Source: a virus (lineage: Duplodnaviria > Caudoviricetes). Taken from it: 64,000 nucleotides of DNA. Below, one piece after another: positions 37,849-53,512 of the stretch (positions within the stretch are counted from its first letter, which is position 1; each line of letters begins with the position of its first letter). The translations under genes were made by a program, and so were the position numbers. The stretch covers positions 123,210 through 187,209 of IMG/VR virus record IMGVR_UViG_3300020577_002562. One strand, 5' to 3'. The notes beneath the pieces are model-generated. The model had not been told where the DNA came from. It searched no databases and saw only the letters and a list, made by a program, of their open reading frames with translations.

Positions 37849-37913
37849 TCAAGCACTACAGGCTCTGCGCGATTGTGTGTGACGCAACATGAAATTAGCG
37901 TGGGCCGCCGCGC

Positions 37914-47493: not shown

Positions 47494-47794
47494 TAAGGGT
47501 GTCCCTGCTCTTGCCACTTGAAGAAGTGGTTTTTGACACAGATGGCTCCGATCTATGCGACCCAACAAGCTTGTTAACTTGCTGAGTCTATGCAATCATC
47601 GCCACGGCAGGGACCACCTTAGTCAGCACATCACTTCATTATCCGCTAGTGCTGACCAAGGGACTATGGATCAGGCCGCGAGGGCCTGATCGAATTGCGC
47701 GTCGTTGGCAGTTCTCTCTTTGCTTGGTTTGCGGCTCCGCTTGCCGGATCGTCGTTCTTACTCTCGGTAACCCTGTCGAAACTATTTCAGCCCC
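47494..47794 (-). ncRNA. ssrA: two-piece tmRNA, coding piece (5' end 47794; tag ANDAQFDQALAA at 47709-47671; 3' end uncertain)
   Basis: GGGGCTGAAATAGTTTCGAC start; resume context AACT|GCC; stop within GATCAGGCC/GGCCTGATC hairpin. Confidence 0.92.
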
Positions 47795-48285
47795 ATCACA
47801 AGTGCACGAACGTACCCCGTTGGAATCTGATTCGTCTTTGGTTGGACGACTCTATGAACTTCCCACCCTTTTCTTATAGCTGATCGCTCTTTCTTCGCAT
47901 CTAGTTGCTTGATAGTGGCATCAAAATGATAAGCACCATCGAACTCGATAAGAATCCTACGATCATCTATCTTCAGAGCCAGATCAAACACGTATTTTCC
48001 AACGGGAAGTTCAAATTTATGTCTTACCTTGTATTTTGTCAACCAGGCCTGAAGCTTTCCGTATTTGCTAGCTTCTCTCTTTCTAAGCAAAGCTGCTACG
48101 TGTTTTACTTCATGCCCGTAAGTTGCTCCAGAATAGTGCTGTCCACATTTACGTGAACAGAAATATGGTTTTGGCAGTTTCTTACCTGCTTTCACCCATT
48201 TGCTATTTTGGTGCGTTACTTCGGCTAACTTTTTCGTGAAGTTAGCCTTGCACAAACTACAAGTTAGTTTTACCGTCTGTATCAT
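47782..48285 (-). CDS. putative homing endonuclease (Zn-ribbon + Vsr/DUF559-like nuclease) in tmRNA intervening segment
   Basis: CSLC...FCSRKC; FDLAL...IEFDGAYH...GWEVHRV; AT-rich; ATG 7 nt after CCA. Confidence 0.8.
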   Translation of the reverse strand: MIQTVKLTCSLCKANFTKKLAEVTHQNSKWVKAGKKLPKPYFCSRKCGQHYSGATYGHEVKHVAALLRKREASKYGKLQAWLTKYKVRHKFELPVGKYVFDLALKIDDRRILIEFDGAYHFDATIKQLDAKKERSAIRKGWEVHRVVQPKTNQIPTGYVRALVMGLK

Positions 48286-48292
48286 ACACTTA

Positions 48293-48510
48293 TGGTGGAG
48301 CTGGCGGGTACTGCCCCCGCGTCCAGAACCCCTCAAGCTCGATCTCTCAAGCTCTTTACGAGCCCTCACGATCATTACTACCACGACGTTCCATACTCAC
48401 AACCTTTCGATTGCCGGTACGGGTGCGGTATCGCGTACCGACCTGACCACTTGCGGAATACAGCTTTACCCTATTGACCGTCACTTGGGCAGCTGCTTGA
48501 CGGTCAAGAT
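48293..48510 (-). ncRNA. ssrA: two-piece tmRNA, acceptor piece (CCA end at 48293; 5' end uncertain)
   Basis: GGACGCGGGGGCAGTACCCGCCAGCTCCACCA; pairs with GGGGCTG giving G3-U70. Confidence 0.9.
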
Positions 48511-48893: not shown

Positions 48894-50120
48894 TCAACCC
48901 TTCACACAGACTACTTGCTTGAGCGTGTGAACCACGTCCACAAGGTCAGCTTGAGCTGCCATCACCATGTCGATGTCCTTGTAAGCCATCGGTGTCTCAT
49001 CCAACACCGAATCGTCTTTGCGGCACTCTACGCCGACGGTGGCGGCAACGTGATCCTCAACCGTAAACCTCTTCTTCGCTTCGTTGCGTCCCATCACACG
49101 ACCAGCACCGTGACTGCACGAACAGAAGGAGTCCGGATTGCCCTTACCACGCACGAGGTAGGACTTGGCACCCATGGAACCTGGGATGATGCCAAGCTGA
49201 TCGGCTTGTGCTGATACAGCCCCCTTGCGTGTCAAGTAAACGTCCTGGCCGAAATGACGCTCAATCGACACATAGTTGTGGTGGCAGTTCACTGCCGATT
49301 CCATTAACAGGAACTCTTTCGATACTGACTCAACCAATGCCTGTACCGTACTCATCATCATGAGCTCCCGGTTCTTACGAGCAAATGCTTGCGCCCAGAG
49401 AACTGCCATGCAGTAGTGGTCGAAATGCTTGGAGCCTTCAGACAGGTACGCCAAGTTCTTGTCGCTGAGTTGGTACTTGCCGACGATGTCCATTTCACGT
49501 TTGGCCTTCTCGATGAAGAAGGTGCCAATGCGGTTACCGATGCCGCGCGAGCCTGAATGCAGCATCAACCATACGTACTGATCTTCATCGATGCAGACCT
49601 CAATGAAGTGATTGCCAGTGCCGAGAGTACCTGCATGCAATGGTGCTCTACGTGCAGCACGCTCCAACTCGGGGTACAGTTGGACCAGAGCCTCCAGTTC
49701 TGTCAACTCGTCTTTGAGATACTGCAAGACCATCGGATCGGGCAGATCCCATGCACCACAGTCACCTGGGCCACCTTCATGTGAGCGACCATGCGGAACA
49801 CGTCGTTCAATGTTGGTGCGTAGCTCATGCAAATTATCCGGCAAGTCACTTGCTCTAAGCGAGGTCTGTTGTGCCATCATGCCACAACCAATGTCCACCC
49901 CAACAGCGGCTGGAATCAGTGCTTTGATGGTCGGCACAACGGTACCGATGGTGGTGCCTGCGCCCCAATGAACGTCTGGCATCACCGCGACATGACTGTG
50001 AACAAACGGTAATGCTGCCAGGTTCCTCAACTGCGTGACCGCAGCGTCTTCAACTGGCACTCCCTTCGTCCACATCTTGATCGGTACTGGGCTGCCTTGC
50101 AACTCGATATAGCTCACCAT
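48894..50120 (-). CDS. rtcB: RtcB RNA ligase
   Basis: MPDVHWG, VGVDIGCG, GTLGTGNHF, HSGSRG, HHNY, SCSHGAGR, YKDID, VCVKG. Confidence 0.97.
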   Translation of the reverse strand: MVSYIELQGSPVPIKMWTKGVPVEDAAVTQLRNLAALPFVHSHVAVMPDVHWGAGTTIGTVVPTIKALIPAAVGVDIGCGMMAQQTSLRASDLPDNLHELRTNIERRVPHGRSHEGGPGDCGAWDLPDPMVLQYLKDELTELEALVQLYPELERAARRAPLHAGTLGTGNHFIEVCIDEDQYVWLMLHSGSRGIGNRIGTFFIEKAKREMDIVGKYQLSDKNLAYLSEGSKHFDHYCMAVLWAQAFARKNRELMMMSTVQALVESVSKEFLLMESAVNCHHNYVSIERHFGQDVYLTRKGAVSAQADQLGIIPGSMGAKSYLVRGKGNPDSFCSCSHGAGRVMGRNEAKKRFTVEDHVAATVGVECRKDDSVLDETPMAYKDIDMVMAAQADLVDVVHTLKQVVCVKG

Positions 50121-51822: not shown

Positions 51823-52281
51823 TCAGCAGTCGCCGTTCGACGCCCTCTTCAGCTTGGCGAGCACTCGGATGCGAGCTTTGATGTAAGACGGGCGAGTGTA
51901 CGCGGGCCGTCCCTTGGACTTCATCATCTCTCCGGTGCTTGGGTTGCGGACTTCAGTGCCCTTCTTGATAGCCGGAAACTTCTTGGCTGGCATCTTCTTG
52001 GTCACGACTTTGAACATACCCGGCCACGAAAACTCGCCAGCGCCGCCGGGCATGACTGATGCCATCATGGCACGCTCGAAGGTAGCCATGACTGCCTTCA
52101 CTTGGCGTGGTTCCAGTTCGTTCTTCTCAGCGATCTTTGCCATCAGCTCATTCTTGGTGAACTTCTTGCGAAGAGGCTTGATTGCATCGACGGTTTTTGC
52201 ACGACGAGCCCTCGTCGTCTTGGCCTTGCTCTTGGTGGTCTTGCTGGTCTTCGTGGTCTTTGCCTTGGCGGTACGTGCCAT
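51823..52281 (-). CDS. HU/IHF-family DNA-binding protein with basic N-terminal tail
   Basis: TKNELMAKIAEK; F.WPGMFKV; RNPSTGE; AGGA SD before ATG 52281. Confidence 0.88.
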   Translation of the reverse strand: MARTAKAKTTKTSKTTKSKAKTTRARRAKTVDAIKPLRKKFTKNELMAKIAEKNELEPRQVKAVMATFERAMMASVMPGGAGEFSWPGMFKVVTKKMPAKKFPAIKKGTEVRNPSTGEMMKSKGRPAYTRPSYIKARIRVLAKLKRASNGDC

Positions 52282-52312: not shown

Positions 52313-52369
52313 TGGTGCCGGCTATCCGACTCGAACGGATGACCTACCGGCGGTTTCAATGAAATTGGT
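52313..52369 (-). tRNA. 3' half of split tRNA-like gene
   Basis: CCGGT-AGGTC-ATCCG TTCGAGT CGGAT-AGCCGGC-ACCA preceded by 17-nt extension. Confidence 0.8.
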
Positions 52370-52452
52370 GCTGGGGGTGAGATTCGAACTCACGTGAGGT
52401 TGCCCTGCCGGCTTACAAAACCGGTGCAATCGACCAACTATGCGACCCCAGC
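52366..52452 (-). tRNA. nested tRNA-Thr(TGT) with long variable arm
   Basis: GCTGGGG/CCCCAGC acceptor, loop TTTGTAA, AGG-GCAA-CCT variable arm, CCA. Confidence 0.85.
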
Positions 52453-52862
52453 TAGTAAGATTTACCTTCTGCATAGCGCACACGACGCGAATGGCGTCCG
52501 TAGCCACGGTTTCGTCCCTTATAGGTATCAGTTTGCGCGTCACAGTTATGACAGATCAGCCGTAGATTTGTCAATTTCCAATCGTATGGGTTTCCATCCA
52601 TATGATCCATAACAAGTGGTACTGGGTACCCACGCCATGTAGTTCTTTTGCAGAGTTTGCATCTATGACCGCGCGTGAAAATTAGGTATGTTTTGATTAG
52701 TTTGACTGTCATACCCTTTGGAAGTTTACCAAGCTTCCTGATCTTAGCGAACGCCAACTTACGTTGATATTGCTGCTGACAATTATTGCTGCAATACTTT
52801 TGGGTTGCCGTTTCCCGGTACAGCTCGATGCTGTCTCTACAATTCAAACAACGTACTTTCAT
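52452..52862 (-). CDS. HNH homing endonuclease
   Basis: CLNC..YCSNNC; CKLC; DHMDGN....LTNLRLICHNC. Confidence 0.9.
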   Translation of the reverse strand: MKVRCLNCRDSIELYRETATQKYCSNNCQQQYQRKLAFAKIRKLGKLPKGMTVKLIKTYLIFTRGHRCKLCKRTTWRGYPVPLVMDHMDGNPYDWKLTNLRLICHNCDAQTDTYKGRNRGYGRHSRRVRYAEGKSY

Positions 52863-52922
52863 GTAGTACCTTTCTAGTCTACATGAAATTAGCGTACCAC
52901 TGTTAATGCGCGTTACAGGTTT

Positions 52923-52973
52923 ACCAATTTCATTGAAACTGCCGATTGCTCTACCAGACTGAGCTAAGCCGGC
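52923..52973 (-). tRNA. 5' half of split tRNA-like gene
   Basis: GCCGGCT-TA-GCTCAGTCTGGTAGAGC-A-ATCGG followed by extension complementary to the 3' half. Confidence 0.8.
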
Positions 52974-53512
52974 GTTGGTTGATTTGGACTGATAGCGTCA
53001 GTCCTAGCTATCTTGGATTGAAGTGCTAGAGCAACAGCATGCCGTTGTTCCGCAGACAGTGCTTGAAAGATTTGCTCTACGGTTTTACCTTTAGTTAAGC
53101 ACCTCCAGAGAGTGATGTACTTGATGTTGAACATGGCGGCCAATTCTCTACGCGAGAACTCCATGTCCTTCCATTTGATCGGTGTTCTGTTCTGTTTGAG
53201 TCGTTGTTGATGCAGGTGCTTCGTCTTTACGTTGTAGTCTGGGAAGAAAAACGGGGACGGTTGCACCGCGTACAATGGAGCCCAACCACTGCTAAGTTTC
53301 TCCGCGCCGGACTTGTATACGCAGCCCTCGGTTCTCAGTTTGCGCAAGCAAGCTTGAACTCTTTTTCGAGACACTCGTGCTACATGCACCAACTGTTCTA
53401 TGGTGGCCTCACCCACTAGCAATCGCTTGACTATTGCCACCAGTACGTCGGTTGATCGAACGTACTTAGTCCCACAACCAGTTTGCATCTTTGTGGACTC
53501 GAACTTCGGCAT
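52964..53512 (-). CDS. HTH-domain DNA-binding protein
   Basis: winged-HTH-like N-terminus, second HTH; true start may be internal. Confidence 0.6.
   Translation of the reverse strand: MPKFESTKMQTGCGTKYVRSTDVLVAIVKRLLVGEATIEQLVHVARVSRKRVQACLRKLRTEGCVYKSGAEKLSSGWAPLYAVQPSPFFFPDYNVKTKHLHQQRLKQNRTPIKWKDMEFSRRELAAMFNIKYITLWRCLTKGKTVEQIFQALSAEQRHAVALALQSKIARTDAISPNQPTPA

What the first reader, a model, noticed from the sequence alone, without database searches (positions are those of the whole stretch)
52313..52973. tRNA inside a tRNA: anticodon loop replaced by a 17-bp duplex enclosing an HNH gene and a second tRNA
Seen: the 5' half (52973-52923) and 3' half (52369-52313) form perfect acceptor, D and T arms with CCA. 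The anticodon stem continues into a perfect inverted repeat GTTTCAATGAAATTGGT (52353-52369/52923-52939). Between the arms lie a promoter-like motif, an HNH ORF and tRNA-Thr(TGT), whose ACCA forms the first 4 nt of the 3' arm. Removing the insert leaves only a 4-nt loop, so no normal anticodon is evident. Possible readings: a two-piece anticodon-less tRNA mimic or decoy; a protein-spliced intron; or an HNH cassette bringing a replacement tRNA (both start G1-C2, as tRNA-Thr does).
Basis: partly seen in the sequence, partly recalled or inferred. Interest (0 to 1): 0.9.

Follow-up and report, generated by a model that had tools for sequence, protein, structure and literature searches.

The report
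Nuclease cassette with spare tRNA splitting tRNA-Thr
A selfish DNA-cutting-enzyme gene that carries its own working threonine tRNA sits in the anticodon loop of this phage's original threonine tRNA gene, and an unusual 17-bp clamp holds the two broken halves together; it is a DNA insertion, not a new kind of tRNA or intron.

Summary
On the minus strand, 52973-52942 and 52350-52313 are the two halves of a flawless tRNA body. A perfect 17-bp inverted repeat (52939-52923 / 52369-52353) extends its anticodon stem. The repeat encloses an intact HNH gene (52862-52452) and a complete tRNA-Thr(UGU) (52452-52366).

The outer body is itself a tRNA-Thr(UGU). A wastewater contig carries the same upstream gene and tRNA nucleotides 1-27, then continues into a normal Thr(UGU) anticodon arm. 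That is an uninterrupted "empty-site" allele.

The HNH family is tied to tRNA-Thr(UGU) genes. It lies next to one in 64 of 80 bacterial-genome loci and 48 of 80 metagenome loci. It is nested with a spare tRNA between tRNA halves in other phage contigs (L031, L047), and it sits inside a group I intron of a tRNA-Thr(UGU) in L038.

Best reading: an intron-less homing-endonuclease cassette that brings a replacement tRNA. No excision gives a normal anticodon loop, there is no ribozyme or splicing endonuclease, and no spliced form was seen.

The 17-bp clamp was found only here among 192 related loci, and its role is unproven. It may act as an RNA zipper, a processing signal or a switch on HNH translation.

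Earlier notes of this scan describe the same class on other DNA.

The parts
52942..52973 (-). Outer tRNA-Thr(UGU) 5' half: acceptor 5' strand, D arm, 5' strand of the anticodon stem (nt 1-31).
   Evidence: Sequence reading. The joined halves are accepted as a tRNA. The body is closest to phage tRNA-Thr(UGU). Nucleotides 1-27 are shared with the empty-site contig.
52923..52939 (-). 5' arm of the perfect 17-bp inverted repeat. It can also pair with the HNH leader (helix H2).
52876..52891 (-). Leader strand. It pairs either with the 5' arm (H2) or with the start-codon region (H3).
   Evidence: Inverted repeats I4 and I6. The local hairpin has z = -4.0.
52854..52866 (-). Start-region strand of hairpin H3. 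It contains the HNH ATG (52862-52860).
52452..52862 (-). HNH endonuclease ORF of 136 aa with an N-terminal zinc ribbon. Its TAG stop overlaps G1 of the inner tRNA.
   Evidence: PHROG HNH endonuclease, E = 2e-19. Pfam HNH_3 matches 18 of 24 family members. Cys, His and Asn residues are invariant in the alignment.
52366..52452 (-). Inner, complete tRNA-Thr(UGU) of 87 nt with a long variable arm and encoded CCA. This is the replacement tRNA.
   Evidence: ARAGORN. Rfam tRNA, 56.7 bits. The same tRNA type occurs in 14 IMG/VR phage contigs and beside or around HNH homologues.
52353..52369 (-). 3' arm of the 17-bp inverted repeat. Its first 4 nt are the ACCA end of the inner tRNA.
52313..52350 (-). 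Outer tRNA-Thr 3' half: 3' strand of the anticodon stem, variable loop, T arm, acceptor 3' strand, A73, CCA.
   Evidence: It is nearly identical (2 differences in 34 nt) to the T arm and acceptor of an intact tRNA-Thr(CGU) contig in run X2.
52964..53512 (-). Context: upstream 182-aa winged-helix-like ORF. Its last codons and stop lie inside the first 10 nt of the outer tRNA.
51823..52281 (-). Context: downstream HU-like DNA-binding protein gene, starting about 30 nt after the outer CCA.
   Evidence: Pfam Bac_DNA_binding.

Best explanation
This is an intron-less homing-endonuclease cassette inserted, as DNA, into the anticodon loop of the phage's resident tRNA-Thr(UGU) gene. The cassette holds a translationally masked HNH gene followed directly by a complete tRNA-Thr(UGU) of a common phage long-variable-arm type.

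Inferred mechanism: the HNH enzyme cuts uninterrupted tRNA-Thr(UGU) genes of related phages in or near the anticodon loop. Repair from the occupied genome then copies the cassette in. The insertion destroys the resident tRNA and nothing splices it out, so the cassette carries a spare tRNA with the same anticodon. The outer shell is therefore a broken gene, not a decoding tRNA.

The 17-bp inverted repeat at the cassette ends extends the old anticodon stem into a helix of about 24 bp. I infer, with only about 40% confidence, that it acts at the RNA level. It would zip the two halves into a tRNA-shaped processing signal around the cassette. By competing with the leader for pairing, it would also shut HNH translation once the whole transcript is made.

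Shown: the anatomy, the Thr(UGU) identity of the shell, an empty-site allele, and the family-wide link between this HNH and tRNA-Thr(UGU) genes. Inferred: the cleavage specificity, homing itself, and any role of the clamp.
For: 1. Empty site. Contig 9 of run X2 matches 53094-52946 (the upstream gene plus tRNA nt 1-27, 2 differences) and then continues into a canonical Thr(UGU) anticodon stem-loop, variable loop and T stem. Contig 8 of the same run carries the occupied junction.
2. The outer body's three nearest neighbours among 147 phage tRNAs are all Thr(UGU).
3. The HNH is intact and is an HNH family member.
4. Homologues lie within about 150 nt upstream or 200 nt downstream of a tRNA-Thr(UGU). 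This holds for 64 of 80 bacterial-genome loci, 48 of 80 metagenome loci and 9 of 10 contigs fetched by exact protein look-up.
5. Independent nested cases exist.
   - L047: the insert sits exactly between G35 and U36, and the rejoined halves give tRNA-Thr(tgt).
   - L031 is syntenic with the window. There the HNH stop again overlaps G1 of a long-variable-arm tRNA-Thr, between halves whose acceptor strands pair.
   - L032, L050 and L188 carry truncated Thr fragments.
6. In L038 the same HNH family sits in a group I intron at position 34/35 of a long-variable-arm tRNA-Thr(UGU). Rfam gives E = 9e-6, and the joined exons give Thr(tgt).
7. Leader hairpins that mask the start region recur in the window, L024 and L031.
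8. The full 666-nt RNA folds with the outer acceptor stem, the clamp, the inner cloverleaf and the leader hairpin (z = -5.1). The nascent 5' part instead pairs the 5' arm with the leader.
Against: - The empty-site evidence is a single 189-nt low-depth contig with a 40-nt divergent end, of which only 30 nt were shown.
- That allele's anticodon and T stems differ from the window's, so it is a diverged allele and not the exact precursor.
- HNH cleavage of tRNA-Thr genes has not been tested.
- The loop residues 33-38 are replaced rather than simply split as in L047, so the insertion history is not simple.
- A perfect 17-bp repeat abutting the anticodon stem, plus an undecayed tRNA body, is more than a dead scar needs. 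It may mean the shell has a function of its own.
Confidence: 0.8

Rival explanations
1. The outer shell is kept by selection as a functional RNA. Held by the 24-bp clamp, it would be an anticodon-less, tRNA-shaped molecule, in one piece or cut into two. It could serve as an RNase P / 3'-end processing signal for the flanking genes, or as a decoy for tRNA-targeting host nucleases or for ThrRS. This can be true alongside a DNA-insertion origin.
For: - The 17-bp repeat is far beyond chance.
- A C:G pair extends the stem.
- All conserved tRNA elements are intact.
- The predicted fold contains the outer acceptor stem and the clamp.
- The upstream ORF ends inside the tRNA and the next gene starts about 30 nt after it, so processing at the shell could matter.
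- Earlier scan notes report inverted-repeat-bracketed nested tRNA-Thr cassettes in other genomes (not tested here).
Against: - None of the other 192 loci with HNH homologues has such a clamp.
- Other nested shells are truncated or decayed.
- There is no covariation data, because all strains seen are identical in the arms.
- Without an anticodon, ThrRS recognition should be poor (established identity rules; not tested).
Confidence: 0.3
2. The 17-bp repeat is a neutral by-product of how the cassette arrived. It could come from fold-back or template-switch repair that copied the inner tRNA's 3' trailer in inverted orientation. It could also be the terminal inverted repeat of a hairpin-ended cassette that moves without homing.
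For: - The window departs from the empty allele from nt 28 onward, so the repeat and the present anticodon stem may have come in together.
- The 5' side equals the inverted 3' side apart from two transitions over 24 nt.
- The 3' arm is the natural AU-rich trailer after the inner tRNA's CCA. Similar trailers follow tRNAs in L052 and L202.
Against: - No target-site duplication is visible in the sequence.
- There is no transposase and no second copy of the repeat in the 187-kb record.
- The repeat is perfect and sits exactly in register with the tRNA stem.
Confidence: 0.3
3. The insert is a true intron. It would be removed by proteins, for example a nuclease acting on the long duplex followed by the nearby RtcB ligase, to restore a decoding outer tRNA.
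For: RtcB is encoded 2.2 kb away. The long helix resembles the pairing that joins the halves of split archaeal tRNAs (recalled knowledge).
Against: - Every possible 7-nt loop left by excision has A at position 33, and most have a pyrimidine at 37.
- No bulge-helix-bulge motif is visible.
- The record has no EndA-like or RNase III gene.
- The cassette already supplies the same anticodon.
- RNA repair ligases sit in other phage tRNA regions too: L024 has an RNA ligase gene.
Confidence: 0.03
4. The insert is a self-splicing group I intron carrying the HNH ORF.
For: Group I introns with or beside this HNH family occur in tRNA genes of other phage contigs (L038 and L011).
Against: The permissive Rfam search (E-value up to 1) finds no group I match in the window region. 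Only about 60 nt of the insert is neither ORF nor tRNA, which is too little for a ribozyme core.
Confidence: 0.01

Closest known systems
Phage T4/T6 SegB (GIY-YIG) and phage T5 F-TflI/II/IV: free-standing homing endonucleases in phage tRNA gene clusters (PMC2330249; PMC13096335)
   Same: A nuclease gene lives among phage tRNA genes. It targets tRNA gene DNA of relatives that lack it, spreads with flanking tRNA genes, and is tightly controlled in expression.
   Different: SegB sits between tRNA genes and recognises the T-arm sequence. Here the gene sits inside a tRNA gene, is tied to the tRNA-Thr(UGU) anticodon loop, carries a same-anticodon spare tRNA and is bracketed by a 17-bp inverted repeat. 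The enzyme is HNH, not GIY-YIG, and its cleavage is untested.
Group I introns with homing-endonuclease ORFs in bacterial and phage tRNA anticodon loops (review PMC3984707; example found here, L038)
   Same: The same target (the anticodon loop of a tRNA gene), and in L038 the same HNH family and the same long-variable-arm tRNA-Thr(UGU).
   Different: There is no ribozyme in the window. The damage is compensated by a spare gene instead of by splicing.
Split and intron-containing tRNA genes of Archaea (Nanoarchaeum-type halves joined through complementary leaders, EndA plus RtcB; recalled knowledge, see also PMC3400036)
   Same: Two tRNA halves are brought together by a long complementary helix next to the anticodon stem, and RtcB is encoded nearby.
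   Different: There is no bulge-helix-bulge motif, no EndA and no anticodon after joining. The setting is a bacterial phage, and the halves lie in cis around a mobile cassette.
'Fractured genes': protein genes split by a homing-endonuclease gene between split-intein halves (PMC2677866). Also mitochondrial endonuclease ORFs that insert into a gene end and bring a replacement end (recalled, not checked here).
   Same: A homing endonuclease occupies the middle of a gene, and function is rescued without an intron.
   Different: Rescue here is by a whole spare RNA gene, not by protein trans-splicing or a duplicated gene end.

Membership tests
Free-standing (intron-less) homing endonuclease element | Encodes an intact site-specific DNA endonuclease of a known homing family. 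| tested here: met
   PHROG HNH endonuclease, E = 2e-19. HNH_3 matches 18 of 24 relatives. The zinc-ribbon Cys residues and the D-H...N...N core are invariant. Enzyme activity itself was not assayed.
Free-standing (intron-less) homing endonuclease element | Presence/absence polymorphism: close relatives carry an uninterrupted target at the same locus. | tested here: met
   Run X2 contig 9 has the same upstream gene and tRNA nt 1-27, then an intact Thr(UGU) anticodon arm. Contig 8 of the same run has the occupied junction. This rests on a single short contig.
Free-standing (intron-less) homing endonuclease element | The enzyme cuts the empty allele near the insertion point and the element is over-inherited in mixed infection. 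| not testable with these tools
   Only indirect evidence exists: insertion or break points in relatives cluster at anticodon-loop positions 34-38 of tRNA-Thr(UGU).
Free-standing (intron-less) homing endonuclease element | Not embedded in a self-splicing intron or an intein. | tested here: met
   No group I match at E-value up to 1, and there is no room for a ribozyme core.
Group I intron in a tRNA gene | Conserved catalytic core (P3-P8), and exons that join to a normal anticodon loop. | tested here: not met
   By contrast, L038 and L011 do match.
Archaeal-type tRNA intron / split tRNA | Bulge-helix-bulge motif at the exon-intron junctions and a splicing endonuclease. | tested here: not met
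   The helix is continuous with one mismatch and no 3-nt bulges. PF01974 is absent from the record, which is about 75% complete.
Archaeal-type tRNA intron / split tRNA | Joining yields a functional anticodon loop. | tested here: not met
   No combination of the flanking letters gives U33 with a purine at 37.
Inverted-repeat-bounded transposable element (IS/MITE-like) | Terminal inverted repeats, a target-site duplication, a transposase or multiple genomic copies. | tested here: inconclusive
   Inverted repeats are present. No direct-repeat duplication is seen, there is no transposase in the insert, and the repeat occurs once in 187 kb.

The most novel reading that the evidence does not exclude
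The 24-bp clamp is a selected RNA device. It would refold the broken tRNA-Thr around the cassette into an anticodon-less, tRNA-shaped signal that RNase P and 3'-end enzymes still recognise. That would preserve processing of the neighbouring mRNAs. Three mutually exclusive helices (5' arm with leader, leader with start codon, 5' arm with 3' arm) would allow HNH translation only on nascent transcripts. In this reading a homing element has recruited the corpse of its target gene as its own regulatory and processing scaffold.
Probability: 0.3. Interest if true: 0.75.

Novelty: new variant of a known kind. Interest (0 to 1): 0.6.

Why it matters
Homing endonucleases are thought to need an intron or intein to live inside essential genes. 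This locus and its relatives show another route for RNA genes: break the gene and bring a spare copy.

That route can explain nested tRNAs and the litter of tRNA halves in phage tRNA arrays and in some bacterial chromosomes. It warns annotators that such "split tRNAs" are scars, not new tRNA biology. It also identifies a large HNH family with a predictable target, the tRNA-Thr(UGU) anticodon loop, which could be tested directly.

The clamp is the one feature a simple scar does not explain. If it works at the RNA level, it would be a new way for a selfish element to limit its cost and time its own expression.

Tried and rejected
- ARAGORN with introns up to 1500 nt and Rfam at E-value up to 1 see only the inner tRNA.
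- IMG/VR has no relatives of the flanking 182-aa and HU-like genes, and no exact match to the 5' junction. No closely related genome could therefore be aligned.
- The phage collection (blastn) matched only the inner tRNA.
- There is no sigma-70-like promoter in the insert.
- Laying contigs of four runs gave no joint that skips the insert and no strand-switch joint. These are contigs, so this says little about RNA splicing or inversion. RNA-library contigs cannot show ends or strands.
- The record has no EndA-like or RNase III gene.
- A search for flanking inverted repeats of 11 nt or more (12 or more in the bacterial-genome loci) around the HNH in 192 related loci found only chance-level 11-14-mers.
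- The motif AATTTCAT is not a genome-wide repeat: 9 copies in 187 kb.
- The HNH has no paralogue in this genome.
- Flank complementarity around actinobacterial tRNA-Thr genes was not pursued, because GC-rich flanks inflate the energies.
- Literature searches found no description of nuclease-plus-spare-tRNA cassettes nested in tRNA genes.

Full report
**What is there**

The window is the last 64 kb of a 187-kb linear IMG/VR phage record, about 75% complete. On the minus strand, 52973-52942 reads as the acceptor strand, U8 A9, a 4-bp D arm with a GG loop, A26 and the 5' strand of an anticodon stem. The stretch 52350-52313 gives the matching 3' strand, a 5-nt variable loop, a canonical T arm, the acceptor 3' strand, A73 and CCA.

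Between the two halves, a perfect 17-bp inverted repeat (52939-52923 and 52369-52353) continues the stem through a C:G pair and one A/C mismatch. The repeat occurs nowhere else in the window, and none of 100 shuffles gave two matches. The combined duplex has a predicted energy of -33 kcal/mol.

ARAGORN calls the joined halves a tRNA with any artificial loop of 6-9 nt. Neither ARAGORN in intron mode nor Rfam recognises the locus as it stands.

The insert holds three things:
- a roughly 60-nt leader;
- a 136-aa HNH ORF at 52862-52452 (PHROG HNH endonuclease, E = 2e-19);
- a complete 87-nt tRNA-Thr(UGU) with a long variable arm at 52452-52366.

The ORF's TAG shares its G with G1 of the inner tRNA. 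The inner tRNA's ACCA forms the first four bases of the 3' arm. The consensus scan finds no sigma-70-like promoter in the insert.

**What the outer shell is**

Among 147 phage tRNAs from related loci, the three closest to the outer body are all tRNA-Thr(UGU).

Contigs of public wastewater runs settle its origin. In run X2, one contig bridges the occupied 5' junction. A second contig matches the end of the upstream gene and tRNA nucleotides 1-27, then continues for 40 nt into a normal anticodon stem, a CTTGTAA loop, a variable loop and a T stem. That is an uninterrupted tRNA-Thr(UGU) at the same locus.

The occupied contig ends 31 nt into the shared sequence. This is what a de Bruijn branch between two co-existing alleles would produce (inference).

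The empty allele's anticodon and T stems differ from the window's. The cassette therefore came with flanking tRNA sequence from another Thr gene, or the alleles are old.

Another contig in the same run is an intact tRNA-Thr(CGU). Its T arm and acceptor are almost identical to the outer 3' half.

**The nuclease family**

Homologues of the HNH (55% identity and below) are common. Their contexts were surveyed in loci fetched from four sources.

| Source of loci | Loci with an adjacent tRNA-Thr(UGU) |
|---|---|
| Bacterial genomes, mostly Actinomycetota | 64 of 80 |
| Metagenome contigs | 48 of 80 |
| Contigs fetched by exact protein look-up | 9 of 10 |

"Adjacent" means within about 150 nt upstream or 200 nt downstream of the gene.

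- **L024-L030.** The closest homologue precedes a long-variable-arm tRNA-Thr(UGU) like the window's inner tRNA, with no outer shell.
- **L031.** This contig is syntenic with the window: tRNA-Val, tmRNA, a DUF559 nuclease, tRNA-Pro and tRNA-Thr. It shows the same layout:
  - a 5' tRNA half;
  - a leader hairpin;
  - the HNH, whose TAG again overlaps G1 of a long-variable-arm tRNA-Thr;
  - a 3' fragment whose acceptor strand pairs with the 5' half;
  - further orphan 3' fragments.
- **L047.** A whole tRNA-Thr(UGU) plus the HNH sits exactly between G35 and U36 of another tRNA-Thr(UGU). The nuclease's TAA stop is U36 A37 A38 of the host tRNA. Rejoining the halves restores tRNA-Thr(tgt).
- **L032, L050, L188.** These carry Thr fragments. 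Those of L032 and L050 are cut in the anticodon loop, and L188 keeps an old 3' remnant after the HNH gene.
- **L038.** The same nuclease family lies inside a group I intron (Rfam E = 9e-6) at position 34/35 of a long-variable-arm tRNA-Thr(UGU).

The family therefore has three lifestyles on one target, the anticodon loop of tRNA-Thr(UGU) genes:
1. intron-borne;
2. free-standing beside the gene;
3. nested with a spare tRNA and no ribozyme.

**Why it is not an intron or a new decoding tRNA**

- Every 7-nt loop obtainable by excision has A at position 33, and most have a pyrimidine at 37.
- There is no group I core and no room for one.
- The helix has no bulge-helix-bulge motif.
- The record has no EndA-like or RNase III gene.
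- RtcB at 48897-50120 is real. However, RNA repair ligases accompany phage tRNA regions elsewhere too: L024 has an RNA ligase gene.
- The cassette already supplies the UGU anticodon.

**How it most likely works**

- *Shown:* the cassette is a DNA insertion into a Thr(UGU) gene, and the nuclease family tracks that gene.
- *Inferred from established homing biology (SegB, PMC2330249):* the HNH cuts uninterrupted alleles during co-infection, and repair copies the cassette with its flanks. The spare tRNA pays for the gene that is destroyed.
- *Expression control:* the leader forms a hairpin that buries the ATG (z = -4.0). Comparable hairpins precede the homologues in L024 (z = -6.6) and L031. This is the usual way phage homing endonucleases are kept low.

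**The clamp**

This is the one feature that the scar model does not need. Among 192 loci with homologous nucleases, no other has a flanking inverted repeat above chance length. There are therefore no homologous examples to test for covariation, and the strains seen in the four runs are identical in the arms.

Thermodynamically, the whole 666-nt transcript folds with the outer acceptor stem, the clamp, the inner cloverleaf and the leader hairpin (z = -5.1). The first 141 nt alone pair the 5' arm with the leader instead, which frees the start region. Three mutually exclusive helices therefore exist.

My preferred reading, at about 40% confidence, is an RNA zipper. It would keep a tRNA-shaped processing signal between the upstream ORF, which ends inside the tRNA, and the next gene. 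It would also shut off HNH translation once transcription is complete.

An equally simple alternative is that the repeat is a by-product of fold-back repair or of a hairpin-ended cassette.

**Relation to earlier notes of this scan**

Notes written by other agents describe the same class on other DNA. They report HNH or GIY-YIG genes with replacement tRNA-Leu, tRNA-Arg or tRNA-Thr nested in split tRNA genes of phages. They also report inverted-repeat-bracketed tRNA-Thr cassettes in Patescibacteria.

I reached the cassette reading before opening them. They agree with it, and they add that inverted-repeat brackets may recur. I could not test that addition.

**Novelty**

Free-standing homing endonucleases in phage tRNA clusters are known: SegB and the T5 F-Tfl enzymes (PMC2330249). 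I found no paper describing nuclease-plus-spare-tRNA cassettes nested in tRNA genes. I rate this a new variant of a known kind. The clamp remains the open and more interesting part.

Noticed in passing
window 47671-48344 (-): Permuted (two-piece) tmRNA, Rfam RF04321 at 97.8 bits, stretched to 674 nt. A DUF559-type endonuclease ORF (about 47785-48285) fills the intervening segment. The relative L031 has an unpermuted tmRNA followed by a DUF559 gene.
   Followed up: partly
window 48897-50120 (-): Complete RtcB RNA ligase (Pfam 408 bits) inside the tRNA/tmRNA region. L024-L025 have an RNA ligase (PF09414) directly upstream of the homologous HNH.
   Followed up: partly
window 52964-52973 (-): The upstream 182-aa ORF ends (TAG) inside the first 10 nt of the outer tRNA. 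RNase P cleavage at the tRNA 5' end would therefore remove its stop codon. The same holds for the HNH ORF and the inner tRNA, and for the HNH in L031.
   Followed up: partly
window 37882-37896 and 52876-52890 (-): An identical 15-nt motif (ACGCTAATTTCATGT) occurs in the HNH leader and in an unrelated intergenic region 15 kb away. The chance expectation is about 4e-4. It may be a shared regulatory or promoter element. AATTTCAT-type motifs also flank the cassette in L024.
   Followed up: partly
window 52366-52452; L194-L207; L024, L031, L038: A widespread phage family of tRNA-Thr (UGU or CGU) has a class-II-like long variable arm and a conserved D arm. It was found in 14 IMG/VR contigs of 7-330 kb by a 19-base pattern. 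Why a Thr tRNA carries a long variable arm is unexplained.
   Followed up: partly
L114-L193 (for example L188 at 1363-1950): In many Mycobacterium, Nocardia and Nocardioides chromosomes an HNH of this family sits about 40 nt downstream of the chromosomal tRNA-Thr(UGU). In L188 an old 3' tRNA-Thr remnant follows the HNH gene.
   Followed up: partly
L031 1989-2029 and 2746-2869: Four orphan 3' tRNA fragments (T arm, acceptor strand and CCA) lie around the cassette, three of them in tandem downstream. They look like the residue of repeated invasions.
   Followed up: partly
L011 3298-3592 and 5547-6009; L013, L014, L018, L020: More distant HNH homologues sit just upstream of a tRNA-Leu that holds a group I intron of about 190 nt (Rfam 52.7 bits in L011). 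L011 also carries a GOLLD RNA (201.8 bits) that encloses a tRNA-Lys.
   Followed up: no
L133 1222-1877: In a Chitinophagaceae MAG contig an HNH homologue lies between the 5' half and the T arm and acceptor of a tRNA, with no inner replacement tRNA in view.
   Followed up: no
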